From Bacillota bacterium (GTDB taxonomy: Bacteria; Bacillota; UBA4882; UBA8346), in assembly GCA_023435225.1 (NCBI GenBank), contig JAEYRX010000076.1:1-24000 (forward strand): a stretch of 24,000 nt of DNA, in the 5' to 3' direction. Positions 1,908 through 23,866 of the stretch are shown here, piece after piece (within the stretch, counting starts at the first letter, position 1; the number at the start of each line of letters is the position of its first letter). Both the position numbers and the translations under genes were made by a program. Below the pieces are notes generated by a model. That model worked only from the letters and a program-made list of their open reading frames with translations. It did not search any database and was not told the origin of the DNA.

Positions 1908-1951
1908 ATAATAAACCAAATTGCCGCTTCAACGGCAATTTGGTTTATTAT
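1908..1951 (+). terminator. Stem-loop after the permease pair (probable terminator)
   Basis: Perfect 19-bp inverted repeat ATAATAAACCAAATTGCCG / CGGCAATTTGGTTTATTAT with a 6-nt loop, starting 21 nt after the stop at 1887. There is no long T-run after the stem (only the T-rich stem end), so efficiency is uncertain. Confidence 0.55.
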
Positions 1952-18531: not shown

Positions 18532-18545
18532 TGAAACCCCTTTCA
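18532..18545. promoter_or_regulatory. Palindromic box 1, TGAAACCCCTTTCA (candidate LacI-family operator)
   Basis: TGAAA/TTTCA half-sites around a CCCC centre, 13 nt upstream of the LacI start codon. An identical 14-mer recurs at 18599-18612. Resembles the generic LacI/CcpA-type TGnAAnCGnTTnCA pattern but lacks the central CG. Confidence 0.4.
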
Positions 18546-18598: not shown

Positions 18599-18612
18599 TG
18601 AAACCCCTTTCA
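18599..18612. promoter_or_regulatory. Palindromic box 2, TGAAACCCCTTTCA (candidate LacI-family operator)
   Basis: Exact repeat of box 1, centres 67 bp apart. The flanks are also similar (TTTnTGAAACCCCTTTCAnA). Confidence 0.4.
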
Positions 18613-18628
18613 TAGATGCCTATCTTAT

Positions 18629-18744
18629 TAAGGGAGTTCTATAATTACCTTTATTCAATTTTTAATCAATATATAGTGATAATCCCGAATGTAGCTATCA
18701 ATATTGTGTTCAAAGTCAATTTTATTAATTATGAAAATCCCTCA
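18629..18744. repeat. Copy A of a ~120-nt nested-palindrome intergenic element
   Basis: Hand alignment to 22726-22845 gives 99 identical positions over 120 columns. Terminal inverted repeats are TAAGGGAGTTCTATAATTA / TAATTATGAAAATCCCTCA. Lies 65 nt after the stop of the binding-protein gene at 18810. Confidence 0.8.
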
Positions 18745-18809: not shown

Positions 18810-19775
18810 TTATTGTTTTTTAAGAGGAAACAGTAATTTCTGAACGGATGGCTTATAATAGTTATTCATCGTTACTACTTCCACACCTGTATCTATTCGT
18901 TTAGCTATCTTTTTCCCATGCAAAGCATCGATACACACTTTCACCGCAGTATATCCCATATTATAAGGATTTTGGACCACCAATCCTTGTATTGTCCCAT
19001 TTTTAAGCATTTCAATCTCGGCCGAGGAAGCATCAAAAGCGACTATTTTAACCTTTCCAGCTAAACCACGGGCCTTAACGGCACGTGAAACACCAATAGC
19101 GCTTGGTTCATTAGCGGCAAAAATACCGTCCAAACCCGGATTGGCAGTCAAAATATTTTCCGTTACCGCCATTGCTTTAGCCACATCACTCTCAGAATAT
19201 TGAATTGCTACTAATTTAACATCAGGGAATTTACTAATAGCTATTTTAAAGCCTTTTTCACGTAATATGGAGGTAGAAGCGCCCGGAATATAAGGAATAC
19301 AAGCCACCTTTCCTTTTCCACCCATCAATTTAACTAAAACATTTCCGGCATCGATTGCGCCTTTCAAGTTATCAGTCGCCACTAAACTTAAGGTAGGATC
19401 GGGGTCCAATCCGGAATCAAGTGAAACAACCGGAATACCCTTATCAAGCGCTTTCTTAACCGGGGCATATAGCGCTTTGACATCACAAGCCGCCAGGGCA
19501 ATCGCATCAACCTTTTTATTGGTATAATCTTCAACAATTGATATCTGACCGGCTATATCAGTTTCCACCGCCGGTCCTTTCCAGATAATTTCGGCTCCAT
19601 ATTCCTTTCCGGCCGCATAAGCTCCTTCGCGTACTGTCAACCAAAAAGAACTGGCTAATGTTTTGGCGCAAACCAAAACAGTTGGTCTTTTGGGTGATTC
19701 GGCGGAAATTTGTGAGAAAAATATGATAATTCCTACTAATGAAACTACTTTAGTTTTTATATATTTCTTCATCAT
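18810..19775 (-). CDS. Sugar ABC transporter substrate-binding protein (RbsB-like, type 1 periplasmic binding fold)
   Basis: 321 aa. Signal peptide (KVVSLVGIIIFFSQISA/E) with no lipobox Cys. Family motifs VDAIALAA, IPVVSLDSG, GIFAANEPSAIGV, VVQNPYNMGY. Paralogue of 22922-23866. Confidence 0.9.
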   Translation of the reverse strand: MMKKYIKTKVVSLVGIIIFFSQISAESPKRPTVLVCAKTLASSFWLTVREGAYAAGKEYGAEIIWKGPAVETDIAGQISIVEDYTNKKVDAIALAACDVKALYAPVKKALDKGIPVVSLDSGLDPDPTLSLVATDNLKGAIDAGNVLVKLMGGKGKVACIPYIPGASTSILREKGFKIAISKFPDVKLVAIQYSESDVAKAMAVTENILTANPGLDGIFAANEPSAIGVSRAVKARGLAGKVKIVAFDASSAEIEMLKNGTIQGLVVQNPYNMGYTAVKVCIDALHGKKIAKRIDTGVEVVTMNNYYKPSVQKLLFPLKKQ

Positions 19776-19791
19776 AAATTCTCCCAGTTAC

Positions 19792-20763
19792 CTAAAACTT
19801 CACTATACGGCGCTGCCGATGTTGGTCCCAATAAACAGCCCCTACAATAACAACTCCGGCTAAAACTTGTTGCCAGAAAGCGGAAATATTTAATAAATTG
19901 GAACTATTTCGTAACAAACCCATCACTAATCCGCCGATAATCGCACTGATTACCGTACCGGTACCGCCGCGTAGCGAAGCTCCCCCCATAACACATACGG
20001 CAATTACTTCCAATTCGTAACCGATTCCGGCGGTTGGTTGACCAATATTTAAACGTGAGGCTAAAAGAATACCGGCAAATCCCGCCAGGAGTCCGGACAT
20101 TGTATAATAACCAATCAAATAATTATCGACATTTACTCCGGATAATAGGGTAGCCTGCGAATTACTTCCGATAGCATAGCTCAAACGTCCAAAACGCGTG
20201 TACCTTAAAATAAAGTATCCGATGACGGAAACCACAATCATCAAAAAAATGGGGACTGGAAATCCACCAAACAAGGTTCCCATTCCCCACCATGAAAAGG
20301 AATCTGTTAATCCTGATATAACAGCGCCATCACTAATAATTAGAGCCATACCGCGAGCTACCCCCATCATTCCTAAGGTAACAATAAACGGCGGTAATTT
20401 CCCTTTACTGATCAGAAAACCATTGATAAAACCACAACCGGCTCCCGCTAACATCCCTAAAATAATGCTCAATATTTCGGGAGTCCCCCGAACCATTAAA
20501 GTAGTCGTTATAATTCCGCTTAACGCCAAAACAGAACCTACCGAGAGATCAATTCCCGAAGAAATAATAACAATCATCTCACCAATGGCCAAAATGACCG
20601 TCACTGCTATTTGAACACCTATAGCGCATAAATTATCCCAGGTTAAAAAATATGGTGAAAAAAAGGTCAATAGAGTAAAGATAATAAGTAGGGTGATCAA
20701 GGGAGTAAAACGATATGAATTTCTTTTTAAAAGAATTTTAGTTGAATCTTCAAAACCAGTCAT
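19792..20763 (-). CDS. Sugar ABC transporter permease (RbsC-like, CUT2 family)
   Basis: 323 aa, highly hydrophobic. RbsC-type motif SSGIDLSVGSVLALSG. Lies 16 nt upstream of the binding-protein gene. No ATPase gene lies between it and the MCP gene. Confidence 0.9.
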   Translation of the reverse strand: MTGFEDSTKILLKRNSYRFTPLITLLIIFTLLTFFSPYFLTWDNLCAIGVQIAVTVILAIGEMIVIISSGIDLSVGSVLALSGIITTTLMVRGTPEILSIILGMLAGAGCGFINGFLISKGKLPPFIVTLGMMGVARGMALIISDGAVISGLTDSFSWWGMGTLFGGFPVPIFLMIVVSVIGYFILRYTRFGRLSYAIGSNSQATLLSGVNVDNYLIGYYTMSGLLAGFAGILLASRLNIGQPTAGIGYELEVIAVCVMGGASLRGGTGTVISAIIGGLVMGLLRNSSNLLNISAFWQQVLAGVVIVGAVYWDQHRQRRIVKF

Positions 20764-20800
20764 TGGTATTCTTTCACTTCCCCAAAGTTCATCTATGTTT

Positions 20801-20828
20801 ATTATATAGCATTAACGAAATATATCAA
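20801..20828 (-). promoter_or_regulatory. Sigma-A-type promoter for the permease/binding-protein (and possibly downstream lacI-fuc) genes
   Basis: The minus strand reads TTGATA (20828-20823), 16 nt, TATAAT (20806-20801). The -10 is perfect and the -35 matches 5/6. Lies about 40 nt upstream of the permease ATG. Confidence 0.6.
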
Positions 20829-20938
20829 ATATCAATCCCATCCAAGTAAACGAAGTACTCAAAAAATCGATATTGATTAATATGACTTAACTGCAAAAGA
20901 TTATTGAAGTGGAAAAATGAAATATTAACTAAAACAAT

Positions 20939-22666
20939 TTAAACCTTGAATATTTTGGCGGCAAGTTTCATCTCATTGGAAATCTGAAGTAAATTTTCTG
21001 CAAGAGTTGTTACTTCTTGCGCCGCAGCACTCTGTTCTTCAGCCGAAGCGGAAATCTCTTCAGTGCTGGCCATGCTTTCTTCACTTATAGCTGCAATATT
21101 AGCGACAGCGCTGATTACTTTTTCATTATCCAGACCCATTTCCGTAGCTGCCTTTGCTACATTACCAATTTGCGCTAAAACCATTTTTAGTTCATTAAAA
21201 ATACCTTCAAAAGTTACAGCTGCTTTACCCGCTAAATTCTTGCTCCCCTCGACCCTGGCAACTCCATTTTCCATTAATTGAACTGCTTGTTCAGCCCGTT
21301 CTCTCATTTGCACGGTAAGTCCATCTATTTTATAGGCGGCTTCCCGGCTTCGCTCGGACAGTTTTCCAACCGCAGTAGCTACCACACTAAATCCTTTACC
21401 TTGTTCGCCGGCTCGAGCGGCTTCAATTGATGCATTAAGCGACAGCAGGGAAGTTTCATCCGTAATTCCCCTTATTTCCGAAGAAATATCAGCAATTAAT
21501 TTTGTGGCTTCATCAAGCTCTTTGATAACATCTCCAATCTCTTTGGTTGCCAAATAAATTTGATTGATTTCATTGGCAACATCATAAGTGAGTTTTTGTC
21601 CGTTTTGCGCTGAAAGTGCCACGTGTTCCGAAGAACTTGCAATGTTTAGAGTTTTTCCTGATACTTCACGAACTATGGTTCCAAGCTTTTCCACGGTGTT
21701 AGCCGTTTGAGTTACTTGGTCCGTTTGGTTTGAAGCGGCACATGCCAATTCTTGCATTGCTTTGGCCACTTCTTCTGTCGTATCACCGGAATTTTTAGCG
21801 GCAATCTTCAAATTCTCACTAGCCGCAGCAATTTGGTCAGACTCATAATTCAAATTGCCAATAAGCCGGCGCAAACTTTCTAATGATGCATTTAATTCAT
21901 TAACTACCTCAAAAGATTCCCGGCAACCAAAGGAGTTAATTTTTTGGGTAAAATCACCAATAGCCATTGCGCGCCCCGCCTTAATAATCGCTTGCAATGG
22001 CCAAGATACAGAAAAATTAATAAATATTCCTATTATAACAGCAATAACGGTACCGCATACCAGTAAAAGTATTACTCTGTATCTTTGGTTTTGAGCGGCA
22101 TTTTTACTATCAGTTGAAGTATTATATGAATTTTCTTGAACTTGTGATTGTATGTTACCAATATCTTTAATTGCTTGAAATAAAGCGGACTCACATTCAA
22201 GAAAGTTTTCTTTAGTATCTGCAGCATAAGCTAATGTTTTCAATTTTTCTACAGTTTCAATAAGGTCTTTCGCCGGATCCGAAACTAACTCGGCTATTCT
22301 ACTATTAGACGAGGTAGTTTTGGTAATTTGCTTTATATTTTCTAAATTTTTCTCAATTGAGCTGAAAGTATAATCTAAAGAACTGCTATCCGCCAGTTGG
22401 GATAAACGTTTCAAATAGTTTTCCCGAATAAAAAGTAAATCGGATTTTAAGGCATCAATGTCGTTTCTAAATTGCACTGCCGAAAAAAACATTTTTTGAT
22501 TTACTATTTGTTGCAAATTAATGTATGATAATATCATATAGCCCTGTATTGCCGTAAAAGCGACCATAACCGCAATAATACTTAATACTAAATGAAAAAC
22601 CCGTACTTTTTTAATAAATGGATGAGATAAAAGCAGTATTATCACTTTCTTGACGTAATTTTTCAT
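20939..22666 (-). CDS. Methyl-accepting chemotaxis protein (two TM segments, ~145-aa helical periplasmic sensor, HAMP, MA domain)
   Basis: 575 aa. TM1 VFHLVLSIIAVMVAFTAIQGYMIL, TM2 VILLLVCGTVIAVIIGIFINF, HAMP WPLQAIIKAGRAMAIGDFTQKI. Invariant signalling hairpin LLSLNASIEAARAGEQGKGFSVVATAVGKLSERS. Confidence 0.93.
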   Translation of the reverse strand: MKNYVKKVIILLLSHPFIKKVRVFHLVLSIIAVMVAFTAIQGYMILSYINLQQIVNQKMFFSAVQFRNDIDALKSDLLFIRENYLKRLSQLADSSSLDYTFSSIEKNLENIKQITKTTSSNSRIAELVSDPAKDLIETVEKLKTLAYAADTKENFLECESALFQAIKDIGNIQSQVQENSYNTSTDSKNAAQNQRYRVILLLVCGTVIAVIIGIFINFSVSWPLQAIIKAGRAMAIGDFTQKINSFGCRESFEVVNELNASLESLRRLIGNLNYESDQIAAASENLKIAAKNSGDTTEEVAKAMQELACAASNQTDQVTQTANTVEKLGTIVREVSGKTLNIASSSEHVALSAQNGQKLTYDVANEINQIYLATKEIGDVIKELDEATKLIADISSEIRGITDETSLLSLNASIEAARAGEQGKGFSVVATAVGKLSERSREAAYKIDGLTVQMRERAEQAVQLMENGVARVEGSKNLAGKAAVTFEGIFNELKMVLAQIGNVAKAATEMGLDNEKVISAVANIAAISEESMASTEEISASAEEQSAAAQEVTTLAENLLQISNEMKLAAKIFKV

Positions 22667-22725
22667 GTTAACTCACTCCATAATAATCTCTAAATTGTTA
22701 TGCAAAGAATCAGGGTTTTTTAAGA

Positions 22726-22845
22726 TAAGGGAGTTTCATAATTACCTTTATTTAGTTTTGGATACAATATATAGTGAGAAACCTAGATGTGACTATCAAT
22801 ATATTGTATCCAAATGTCAAATTTTTTAATTATGAAAATCCCTCA
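22726..22845. repeat. Copy B of the ~120-nt nested-palindrome intergenic element
   Basis: Outer arms are TAAGGGAGTTTCATAATTA (22726-22744) and TAATTATGAAAATCCCTCA (22827-22845), complementary at 17 of 19 positions. Perfect inner 16-bp arms are TTTGGATACAATATAT (22757-22772) and ATATATTGTATCCAAA (22799-22814). There are 12-nt internal loops on both sides and a 26-nt apical loop. Confidence 0.85.
22792..22820 (-). promoter_or_regulatory. Candidate sigma-A-type promoter for the MCP gene, embedded in element copy B
   Basis: The minus strand reads ATTAAAAAAT TTGACA (22820-22815), 17 nt, GATAGT (22797-22792). It is downstream of the terminator at 22871-22908, so the MCP gene needs its own promoter. 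Predicted leader is about 120 nt. Confidence 0.45.
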
Positions 22846-22870
22846 GATAATTAAAACAGTAAAATAATTC

Positions 22871-22908
22871 CAAAAAATTAAAGGTCTGCCGATAATTGGC
22901 AGACCTTT
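22871..22908 (-). terminator. Rho-independent terminator after the binding-protein gene
   Basis: Perfect 11-bp stem AAAGGTCTGCC / GGCAGACCTTT (22880-22890 / 22898-22908) with a 7-nt loop. On the minus strand it is followed by AATTTTTTGG. It starts 14 nt after the stop at 22922. Confidence 0.8.
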
Positions 22909-22921
22909 GTAGATAAATTTT

Positions 22922-23866
22922 TTATTTGTTTCCTAATGCTTTTTGGGCTTCATCAGTCTTAATATTTTTGGTGGTTACAGCAAATACTCCGGTATCGATG
23001 AATTCTTCAATCTTTTTACCATTGATTTTATCCCAAGCGGCTTTAACGCCAAGATATCCCATGTTATAAGGGCTTTGAACCATAATCGCCTGGTAAACTC
23101 CTTTAGCTGTATAGTCTTGGAGAATAGGAGCGCCATCAAAACCTACTGCTACAATTTTACCGGCTTTACCTGCTTGTTCAATAGCTTTGCCTACGCCGAT
23201 TGCAGTTGGTTCATTAGCGGCAAAAACAGCTTTTAAATCCGGATTGGCGGCTAATACATCGGTCATTTGATTTAAGGCTTTGGCGGAATCAGCATCAGAA
23301 TAGTACGGTCCAACGATTTTCATCTTGGTTTTGGCTTTGATTTCATCGGTAAAACCTTTGGCCCGGTCTACACAACTTCCAGCGCCGGCGACATAGAGCA
23401 TCAAAGCAACTTTTCCTTTTTTACCAGCTCGTTTAATTAACTCTTGAGCTGCTTTTTTACCGGCAGCTACGTTATTAGTAGTTAAAAAGGAGTCACATTT
23501 AGTATTAAGAGCGGAATCTATACCGATCAAGGCGATGCCGGACGATTTGGCTTTTTCAGCCACTTTAACTAAAGCATTGGGATCGCAAGGGGCAAGCACG
23601 ATACCTTTTACCTGGCGATTAATAGCGTTTTCAACCATGGATACTTGATTGTTGATGTCGGTTTCTTGAGCCGGTCCATCATAGGTAATTTTAATGCCGA
23701 GTTCTTTAGCAGCTGCTTGGGCGCCTTTATTAACTACTTGCCAATAGGATGAATTGTTGGTTTTAACGATAACTGCGACATCTTCAGCGGCGGCAAAAAT
23801 GTTCCCAAGCGTTAAACTTAAAACAAATACAACAGCCATCAGAAAGAAGAGATTTCTTTTAAACAT
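22922..23866 (-). CDS. Sugar ABC transporter substrate-binding protein (RbsB-like, type 1 periplasmic binding fold)
   Basis: 314 aa. Signal peptide (FFLMAVVFVLSLTLGNIFAA/AE) with no lipobox Cys. Motifs VKGIVLAP, IALIGIDSA, AVFAANEPTAIGV, MVQSPYNMGY. SD GAGGGGG lies 7 nt before the ATG. Confidence 0.9.
   Translation of the reverse strand: MFKRNLFFLMAVVFVLSLTLGNIFAAAEDVAVIVKTNNSSYWQVVNKGAQAAAKELGIKITYDGPAQETDINNQVSMVENAINRQVKGIVLAPCDPNALVKVAEKAKSSGIALIGIDSALNTKCDSFLTTNNVAAGKKAAQELIKRAGKKGKVALMLYVAGAGSCVDRAKGFTDEIKAKTKMKIVGPYYSDADSAKALNQMTDVLAANPDLKAVFAANEPTAIGVGKAIEQAGKAGKIVAVGFDGAPILQDYTAKGVYQAIMVQSPYNMGYLGVKAAWDKINGKKIEEFIDTGVFAVTTKNIKTDEAQKALGNK

What the first reader, a model, noticed from the sequence alone, without database searches (positions are those of the whole stretch)
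22726..22845. A ~120-nt nested-palindrome intergenic element, present twice and better conserved than the paralogous genes it follows
Seen directly:
- 22726-22845 and 18629-18744 align by hand at 99 identical positions over 120 columns (4 gap columns).
- The RbsB-like genes immediately 5' of each copy (minus strand) are only distant paralogues, roughly 40% aa identity by eye. Their 3' coding DNA does not align anywhere near as well.
- Both copies sit 65-76 nt after a binding-protein stop codon and ahead of the next minus-strand gene (MCP or LacI).
- Copy B folds as a nested hairpin: 19-nt outer arms, symmetric 12-nt internal loops, a perfect 16-bp inner stem and a 26-nt apical loop.
- In the minus-strand transcript one of the two outer-arm mismatches becomes a G-U wobble; it is A-C on the plus strand. 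This is weak support for function in the gene-sense RNA.

I do not recognise it as any described riboswitch or leader class.

Competing explanations:
- a new cis-regulatory RNA or structured leader;
- a REP-like 3' stabiliser of the binding-protein message, as with the malE-malF REP in E. coli;
- a MITE;
- a protein-bound DNA palindrome.

Higher conservation of non-coding DNA than of the flanking paralogous genes implies either selection or recent mobility.
Basis: seen in the sequence. Interest (0 to 1): 0.75.

Follow-up and report, generated by a model that had tools for sequence, protein, structure and literature searches.

The report
Small mobile palindromic repeat (MITE-like)
The 120-base nested palindrome is real and present twice in the window. 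It behaves like a small non-autonomous transposable repeat that recently inserted into intergenic DNA of this one bacterial lineage, not like a conserved regulatory RNA, so it is an ordinary kind of genome feature.

Summary
Copies at 22726-22845 (B) and 18629-18744 (A) are 80% identical, while the binding-protein genes before them share 43% aa and about 52% nt. B folds into the described nested hairpin (-39.5 kcal/mol, z -6.7).

The "selection" reading fails:
- The source scaffold carries at least four more family members outside the window. These are a full copy (89% to B), a 47-nt internally deleted copy in inverted orientation, a 65%-identical variant upstream of hisG, and an inverted, deleted copy upstream of a glycine riboswitch/SHMT.
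- Four related organisms (MCP orthologues 70-80% identical) keep the same gene order. Two of them span both paralogous permease/binding-protein pairs. None has the element; at site B it appears as a clean insertion between conserved flanks.
- Only 1 of 44 predicted pairs shows a compensatory change, no better than shuffles.
- Rfam and pattern scans of genomes, metagenomes, viruses, plasmids and phages find nothing related.

Best explanation: a lineage-specific MITE-like element with 19-nt terminal inverted repeats, 25% G+C and no coding capacity. The high copy-to-copy similarity reflects recent transposition. A target-site duplication and an autonomous partner were not established. This is a new member of a known kind and of low interest.

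The parts
22726..22845 (-). Copy B, full length (120 nt). It lies between the terminator of the upstream binding-protein gene and the leader of the MCP gene.
   Evidence: (I1). It appears as a clean insertion relative to three orthologous loci.
18629..18744 (-). Copy A (116 nt, 80% identical to B). Its inner stem is degraded. It lies upstream of the conserved operator-like palindromes of the LacI gene.
   Evidence: It is absent at the same site in L010 and L013.
22827..22845 (-). Copy B terminal inverted repeat, 5' arm in gene sense (TGAGGGATTTTCATAATTA).
22726..22744 (-). Copy B terminal inverted repeat, 3' arm in gene sense (TAATTATGAAACTCCCTTA).
22757..22814 (-). Copy B inner hairpin: a perfect 16-bp stem (22799-22814 with 22757-22772) around a 26-nt loop.
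   Evidence: One G-C to C-G swap relative to copy C.
18726..18744 (-). Copy A terminal inverted repeat, 5' arm in gene sense.
18629..18647 (-). Copy A terminal inverted repeat, 3' arm in gene sense (3 mismatches to the other arm).

Best explanation
The element is a member of a small family of non-autonomous, MITE-like palindromic transposable repeats specific to this uncultured Bacillota-like lineage.

**Anatomy.** It is about 120 nt long with 19-nt terminal inverted repeats (5'-TGAGGGATTTTCATAATTA ... TAATTATGAAACTCCCTTA-3'). It has an AT-rich core containing a second inverted repeat and no coding capacity.

**Mechanism (inferred, not shown).** A transposase supplied in trans by an unidentified insertion sequence recognises the terminal repeats. 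It moves copies into AT-rich intergenic DNA, possibly with a preference for nearby sites.

**Why the copies look conserved.** The two window copies resemble each other more than the old paralogous genes beside them because they were inserted recently from a common master sequence. Selection on the sequence is not needed to explain this.

**Side effects (possible, untested).** Any effect on the host would be secondary. Where a copy is co-transcribed it adds a large hairpin to the transcript. Copy B also carries a promoter-like TTGACA-17-GATAGT.
For: **Family and anatomy**
- At least 6 members lie on one scaffold: B and A in the window, plus C (L001 1311-1430, 89% identical to B), D, E and F.
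- D (L001 6122-6168) is 47 nt: the two arms plus about 13 nt, in inverted orientation. E (L026 2560-2667) is 65% identical to B and lies upstream of hisG. F (L026 1-68) is inverted, internally deleted and cut by the end of the locus.
- This mix of full-length, internally deleted and diverged members in both orientations is typical of a transposon family.
- The same asymmetric arm mismatch (GGGATTTT versus GGGAGTTT) is inherited by B, C, A and D, which points to a common master copy.
- G+C is 22-32% against 43% for the window, and no copy has a credible ORF.

**Empty sites in relatives**
- Four relatives with the same gene order (L010 77%, L013 70%, L021 79%, L022 80% MCP identity) have no copy.
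- At site B the terminator and the MCP leader align across the gap.
- At site A the two ATGAAAGGGGTTTCAT palindromes are conserved and the element is extra DNA upstream of them.
- At site D the element sits just after a conserved terminator T-run.

**Timing**
- Each binding-protein and permease paralogue has its own orthologue at 79-87% aa in relatives, while the paralogues share 43-47%.
- The gene duplication is therefore old, and the elements arrived after the species split.
- B and C are 89% identical, whereas orthologous coding DNA between the source and L010 is 76-80% identical.

**No RNA signature**
- There is no Rfam hit.
- Only 1 of 44 pairs is compensatory, and 332 of 500 shuffles do as well.
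- Folding energy is equal on both strands.

**Assembly behaviour**
- Independent Logan contigs of the source sample end inside copies B and C.
Against: - **No clear target-site duplication.** B has TTATC on both sides if the element is taken to end at CTCCC, and A matches 4 of 5, but C and D do not.
- **No autonomous partner.** No element with the same terminal repeats was found, and no transposase gene lies in the roughly 62 kb of source sequence read.
- **Genome-wide copy number is unknown.** The six copies are clustered in 25 kb with none in the other 37 kb of the same contig. Four of them sit upstream of the four transcription units of one sugar-utilisation cluster, which could also suggest a recruited function.
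- **No other copies found elsewhere.** Exact-pattern scans of genome, metagenome and viral collections found none. These scans needed exact matches, and the source genome is apparently not in those collections.
Confidence: 0.77

Rival explanations
1. A host-exploited palindromic repeat, comparable to ERIC, Correia or REP elements. It would be mobile in origin but now kept because the co-transcribed hairpin acts as an RNase III/RNase E processing site, an mRNA stabiliser or a promoter donor for the sugar-uptake/chemotaxis cluster.
For: - The hairpins are very stable: B -39.5, C -34.7 and E -28.8 kcal/mol, with z between -4.7 and -6.7.
- Four copies lie upstream of the four transcription units of one cluster.
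- Copy B carries TTGACA-17-GATAGT in gene sense.
- The inner stem shows one G-C to C-G swap between B and C.
- Effects of this kind are documented for Correia and ERIC elements (PMC10969869).
Against: - Copy A has lost the inner stem.
- D and F are inverted and internally deleted.
- The promoter-like spacing is not kept in A (14 nt), and the -10 hexamer is poor in C.
- Relatives run the same cluster without the element.
- E and F lie next to unrelated housekeeping genes.
Confidence: 0.1
2. A DNA palindrome bound by a protein, for example a regulator of the cluster or a nucleoid protein. It would have been spread on a mobile carrier so that several operons acquire the same operator.
For: - Two-fold symmetry, with the arms retained even in the 47-nt mini-copy D.
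- Each arm contains ATGAAA/TTTCAT, the half-site of the conserved ATGAAAGGGGTTTCAT palindromes upstream of the LacI gene.
- Copies are clustered in one sugar-utilisation region.
Against: - The full operator-like motif TGAAANNNNTTTCA occurs only at the two sites upstream of LacI, in the source and in relatives, and never inside the element.
- The arm half-sites are 31-104 nt apart and point outward.
- Copies E and F are outside the cluster.
- Relatives lack the element altogether.
Confidence: 0.05
3. A new cis-regulatory RNA (riboswitch-like leader or attenuator) acting in the gene-sense transcript.
For: - Intergenic position, 36-110 nt upstream of start codons, with a strong predicted fold.
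- A G-U wobble appears only on the gene-sense strand in B, A and C.
Against: - It is not conserved at any orthologous site in four relatives, although true regulatory sequences nearby are conserved.
- Covariation is no better than shuffles.
- Copies occur in both orientations, and the downstream genes are unrelated.
- The fold is equally good on both strands.
- There is no Rfam match.
Confidence: 0.03
4. A relic of the segmental duplication that produced the two permease/binding-protein pairs, kept similar by gene conversion.
For: The two window copies each follow a permease/binding-protein pair in the same order and orientation.
Against: - The duplication predates the split from relatives: orthologues share 79-87% aa and paralogues 43-47%.
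- Relatives have both gene pairs but no element.
- Other copies lie next to unrelated genes.
Confidence: 0.02

Closest known systems
Prokaryotic MITEs in general (as reviewed in PMC10969869)
   Same: It is under 500 bp, has terminal inverted repeats within the 4-30 bp range, and is AT-rich. It inserts into AT-rich intergenic DNA, has no transposase, forms stable stem-loop transcripts, and exists as multiple copies including deleted variants.
   Different: No convincing target-site duplication and no partner insertion sequence were identified. The family is known so far from a single metagenomic scaffold.
ERIC / IRU elements of Enterobacteriaceae (about 127-bp imperfect palindromes)
   Same: Nearly the same size. 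Both are imperfect nested palindromes, intergenic, often co-transcribed, variable in presence between related genomes, and have shorter deleted forms.
   Different: No sequence similarity was seen and the host phylum differs. ERIC is more G+C-rich and is thought to be largely immobile today (own knowledge). Here the copies look recent.
Correia elements (Neisseria) and RUP (Streptococcus pneumoniae)
   Same: Both are 100-150-bp repeats with terminal inverted repeats, inserted close to gene starts. They can donate promoters or create RNase III substrates (PMC10969869).
   Different: Correia and RUP have a defined TA duplication, and RUP has a known or suspected IS630-type mobiliser (own knowledge). 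Neither feature is shown here, and the sequences are unrelated.
REP/BIME elements (e.g. the malE-malF REP of E. coli)
   Same: Both are intergenic palindromes that follow binding-protein genes and could stabilise the upstream message.
   Different: REPs are 20-40-nt G+C-rich hairpins linked to RAYT transposases (own knowledge). This element is 120 nt with 25% G+C and true terminal inverted repeats. Copy B also sits downstream of the gene's own terminator, so it is unlikely to be part of that message.

Membership tests
MITE (miniature inverted-repeat transposable element) | Total length typically under 500 bp | tested here: met
   Copies are 116-120 nt at full length, 108 nt for the variant and 47 nt for the deleted form.
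MITE (miniature inverted-repeat transposable element) | Terminal inverted repeats of about 4-30 bp | tested here: met
   The arms are 19 nt, and 17 of 19 positions pair, plus a G-U, in B. All four arms in the window were recovered at up to 3 mismatches against 0.18 expected.
MITE (miniature inverted-repeat transposable element) | No transposase or other coding capacity | tested here: met
   Only spurious ORFs of 22-54 aa overlap copy B.
MITE (miniature inverted-repeat transposable element) | Multiple dispersed copies in one genome | tested here: inconclusive
   At least 6 copies lie in 25 kb of one scaffold, next to unrelated genes, and none in the other 37 kb. The rest of the genome could not be reached.
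MITE (miniature inverted-repeat transposable element) | Evidence of insertion: empty orthologous sites in relatives | tested here: met
   Sites B, A and D are empty in the relatives whose loci cover them (site B in L010, L013, L021 and L022; sites A and D in L010 and L013), with flanks that align in relatives at sites B, A and D. The aldo-keto reductase upstream region at site C also lacks it.
MITE (miniature inverted-repeat transposable element) | Flanking target-site duplication | tested here: inconclusive
   B has TTATC/TTATC and A has ATAAT/TTAAT under one choice of boundary. C and D show none. The review notes that direct repeats decay with age.
MITE (miniature inverted-repeat transposable element) | AT-rich and inserted in AT-rich intergenic DNA | tested here: met
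   Copies have 22-32% G+C and the host intergenic regions 25-27%, against 43% for the window.
MITE (miniature inverted-repeat transposable element) | Related autonomous insertion sequence with matching terminal repeats able to mobilise it | not testable with these tools
   No transposase gene lies in the 62 kb read. Arm-pattern scans of the viral collection and blastn against plasmids and phages gave only chance hits.
Cis-regulatory RNA (riboswitch / leader) | Conserved at orthologous positions upstream of the regulated genes | tested here: not met
   It is absent from every relative's locus that covers a given site.
Cis-regulatory RNA (riboswitch / leader) | Base-pair covariation supporting the structure | tested here: not met
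   1 of 44 pairs is compensatory and 332 of 500 shuffles do as well. Only three full copies were available, so power is low.
Cis-regulatory RNA (riboswitch / leader) | Fixed orientation relative to the downstream gene | tested here: not met
   Copies D and F are inverted.
REP/BIME | Short (20-40 nt) G+C-rich hairpin units, often in clusters, linked to a RAYT transposase | tested here: not met
   The element is 120 nt with 25% G+C and has terminal inverted repeats. The RAYT link could not be tested.

The most novel reading that the evidence does not exclude
The element is a recently spread mobile palindrome that has been co-opted to rewire one catabolic/chemotaxis cluster. One copy landed upstream of each of the four transcription units: aldo-keto reductase/FucU, ABC ATPase-permease-binding protein, MCP-permease-binding protein, and LacI-kinase-isomerase-aldolase. 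These copies would provide a shared protein-binding site or RNA hairpin that couples sugar uptake, chemotaxis and catabolism in this lineage only.
Probability: 0.08. Interest if true: 0.55.

Novelty: new member of a known kind. Interest (0 to 1): 0.2.

Why it matters
It matters mainly for annotation. The case shows that [quoted passage not shown] can arise from recent transposition rather than selection. It adds an undescribed MITE-like family, and a second small palindromic family nearby, to an uncultured Bacillota-related lineage.

Such repeats fragment metagenome assemblies; the Logan contigs of the source sample end inside copies. They can also alter expression of adjacent genes. The insertions next to a conserved terminator, an ANTAR-type leader and LacI operator-like sites make this locus a usable natural experiment for that question. 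It does not open a new class of regulatory RNA.

Tried and rejected
- **Rfam, gathering threshold,** on the window and on L026. Nothing was found at any copy; the only hit was a glycine riboswitch elsewhere.
- **Two-arm pattern in genome contigs.** Two hits, both chance matches in unrelated MAGs.
- **Right-arm 20-specified-base pattern in metagenome contigs.** Two chance hits. In hindsight a protein-anchored scan might have fetched more of the source genome.
- **Viral contig scans** with the two-arm pattern and with each arm alone. There were 0 or chance hits inside coding gene starts.
- **blastn against plasmids and phages.** Only matches of at most 36 nt (query spans 25-35 nt) with E of 0.03 or higher.
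- **Leader peptide.** I looked for one from the AAAGG-N5-ATG in the right arm. It would give 9 aa in B and 4 aa in C, and the start codon is lost in A, so I rejected it.
- **Conserved sigma-70 promoter inside the element.** It is good only in B. The spacing is 14 nt in A, so I rejected it as a family feature.
- **Link to the LacI operator-like palindrome.** I searched for TGAAANNNNTTTCA. It occurs only at the two conserved sites upstream of LacI, so I rejected the link.
- **Target-site duplication.** I tried to define it from the empty sites. The flanks next to the insertion points are too diverged and AT-rich to settle it.

Full report
**1. The observation**

The two copies exist as described.
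- B is at window 22726-22845 and A at 18629-18744. They align at 96 of 120 columns by MAFFT.
- The 17-nt arm motif TAATTATGAAAATCCCT is found four times in the window at up to 3 mismatches, exactly at the four arms. The chance expectation is 0.18.
- Both flanking genes are Peripla_BP_4 sugar-binding proteins. They share 43% aa and about 52% nt.
- Copy B has 19-nt outer arms, a perfect 16-bp inner stem and 26 nt between the inner arms (I1). As RNA it folds at -39.5 kcal/mol (z -6.7) on the gene-sense strand and -38.3 (z -6.9) on the other strand.
- Copy A keeps the outer arms but has a degraded inner stem (-20 kcal/mol, z -2.2).

**2. Context**

All genes from about 5.5 kb to the end of the window are on the minus strand. 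In the direction of transcription the order is:
- ABC ATPase, then permease, then binding protein B
- a strong intrinsic terminator (22880-22908)
- element B, then the MCP gene, then permease, then binding protein A
- element A, then a LacI-family regulator, FGGY kinase, L-fucose isomerase and a class II aldolase

The window comes from a metagenomic scaffold, ena:ERZ28599450 scaffold_167 (61.5 kb). The same sequence lies on an 81.9-kb contig of a second assembly, ERZ27268878. The closest named relative of a neighbouring aldolase is Hydrogenispora ethanolica (Bacillota) at 80% aa.

**3. More family members on the same scaffold**

Reading outward from the window (L001, L008, L026) and scanning with an nhmmer profile of the copies gave four further members.

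| Copy | Location | Features | Neighbouring genes |
|---|---|---|---|
| C | L001 1311-1430 | 120 nt, 89% identical to B | between a GatZ-like gene and an aldo-keto reductase |
| D | L001 6122-6168 | 47 nt, the two arms plus about 13 nt, inverted | just after a terminator, upstream of the ABC ATPase |
| E | L026 2560-2667 | 108 nt, 65% identical to B, both arms of the TAAGGGAGTTTCATAATT type, fold -28.8 kcal/mol | ends about 20 nt before the hisG start |
| F | L026 1-68 | inverted, internally deleted, cut by the locus end | upstream of a glycine riboswitch (RF00504) and SHMT |

- At least six members therefore lie within 25 kb. None lies in the remaining 37 kb of the same contig (window 1-18600, L007, L015).
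- All copies have 22-32% G+C against 43% for the window.
- No copy has a credible ORF.
- B, C, A and D share the same asymmetry between the arms (GGGATTTT versus GGGAGTTT). This is expected if they descend from one master copy rather than being shaped independently for pairing.

**4. Relatives have empty sites**

A protein search with the MCP found orthologues of 70-80% identity. Their contigs have the same gene order: L010/L011/L012 at 77%, L013 at 70%, L021 at 79% and L022 at 80%. None of these loci contains the element.
- **Site B.** The alignment of four loci shows the terminator after the binding-protein gene and the MCP leader (CCCTGATTC..GCATAAC, ribosome-binding site, start) conserved. 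The element plus a few flanking bases is present only in the source.
- **Site A.** L010 and L013 conserve two ATGAAAGGGGTTTCAT palindromes in front of the LacI gene. The element is extra DNA just upstream of the first one.
- **Site D.** The element follows a conserved terminator T-run, and removing it restores a sequence that aligns with both relatives.
- **Site C.** The upstream gene differs between the source and its relatives. Their aldo-keto reductase upstream regions (26-104 nt) have no copy.

**5. Timing**

- Each binding-protein and permease paralogue has its own orthologue in the relatives at 79-87% aa, while the paralogues share 43-47%.
- The gene duplication therefore long predates the species split, and the elements arrived after it.
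- Orthologous coding DNA between the source and L010 is 76-80% identical. Copies B and C are 89% identical and B and A are 80% identical.
The repeat is more alike than the neighbouring paralogues because it is young, not because it is constrained.

**6. Tests of the RNA reading**

- Rfam has no match at any copy.
- On the alignment of B, C and A, 92% of cells pair, but only 1 of 44 pairs has a change on both sides: the G-C to C-G swap in the inner stem of C. Of 500 shuffles, 332 do at least as well.
- With three sequences the power is low, but there is no positive signal.
- The fold is equally stable on both strands.
- Two members are inverted relative to the genes.
- The downstream genes are functionally unrelated.

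A dedicated cis-regulatory RNA is therefore very unlikely.

**7. Other searches**

- Exact-pattern scans of the genome, metagenome and viral collections returned only chance matches, as did blastn against plasmids and phages.
- The source genome is evidently not among the GTDB representatives or the JGI contigs.
- Two partial similarities in other organisms exceed 2000 of 2000 shuffles:
  - the start of L014, directly upstream of a 76% MCP orthologue, resembles the right half of the element;
  - L019 19067-19102 resembles the interior.
- They may be decayed relatives of the family. I could not follow them further.
- Independent Logan contigs of the source sample end inside copies B and C. Repeats or strong hairpins are known to cause such breaks.

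**8. Interpretation**

The anatomy fits the definition of prokaryotic MITEs given in PMC10969869: terminal inverted repeats, small size, AT-richness, intergenic location, no coding capacity, deleted and diverged variants, both orientations, and presence/absence between relatives.

Two defining points remain open.
- A target-site duplication: TTATC on both sides of B and 4 of 5 at A, but none at C or D.
- The autonomous partner.

Mobilisation in trans by an unidentified transposase is therefore inferred, not shown.

The clustering of six copies in 25 kb, and of four copies upstream of the four transcription units of one sugar cluster, is the only unusual aspect.
- It could reflect local hopping, which is known for several transposons (own knowledge).
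- Less likely, it could reflect co-option.
- Secondary effects are plausible by analogy with Correia and ERIC elements but are untested. They include a hairpin in the MCP, LacI and ABC leaders, and the promoter-like TTGACA-17-GATAGT in B.

**9. Verdict**

This is a new member of a known kind and of low interest.

Noticed in passing
window 18532-18545 and 18599-18612 (minus strand): There are two copies of the palindrome (A)TGAAAGGGGTTTCA(T), 67 nt apart, in front of the LacI-family gene. The proximal one lies just upstream of the ribosome-binding site. Both are conserved in position in relatives L010 and L013, and the motif occurs nowhere else in the cluster. They are probably the regulator's own operators.
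   Followed up: partly
L001 6040-6115 (outside the window, upstream of the ABC ATPase gene); same place in L010 and L013: A conserved leader with hairpins and a strong terminator (GGCGATGAACGCCAGATTGTTG...CAACAGCTGGCGTTTTTTT) lies directly downstream of a GAF-histidine kinase / ANTAR response-regulator pair. This looks like an ANTAR-controlled antitermination leader for the sugar ABC transporter. Rfam gave no hit at gathering threshold.
   Followed up: partly
L026 2371-2463 and L026 16773-16849 (inverted relative to each other; outside the window): This is a second, unrelated small palindromic repeat family of about 80-90 nt, with arms TAGGATGAAGTAAAT and core GCATTCGGCCTTA.GAATGCAAAT. One copy lies after the SHMT gene and one after the ANTAR regulator gene. 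The latter is absent from relatives. The genome appears to carry several MITE-like families.
   Followed up: partly
window 18810-23866 and the syntenic loci L010, L013, L021: An MCP gene with no recognisable sensor domain in Pfam (only MCPsignal, residues 350-527) is embedded between two permease/binding-protein pairs of a ribose-type ABC transporter. The arrangement is conserved in relatives. This suggests chemotaxis signalling through the binding proteins.
   Followed up: no
L026 381-470: A glycine riboswitch aptamer (RF00504, 67 bits) lies upstream of a serine hydroxymethyltransferase gene. A second aptamer-like stretch lies just before it at about 300-380.
   Followed up: partly
L009 end, L002 start, L027 end (Logan contigs of SRR13358445): The Logan assembly of the source sample breaks inside copies B and C, near the inner hairpin. 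The ENA assemblies read through.
   Followed up: partly
L014 20-61 and L019 19067-19102: These are partial similarities to the element in other organisms. In L014 the right half is matched at the very start of a contig, just upstream of a 76% MCP orthologue that sits in a rearranged context. In L019 the interior and loop are matched upstream of a class IV aminotransferase. Both exceed 2000 of 2000 shuffles but lack the terminal repeats.
   Followed up: partly
window 1908-1951: A perfect 19-bp inverted repeat with a 6-nt loop (ATAATAAACCAAATTGCCG / CGGCAATTTGGTTTATTAT) lies just after the ABC permease gene that ends at 1887. It is probably an ordinary terminator.
   Followed up: no
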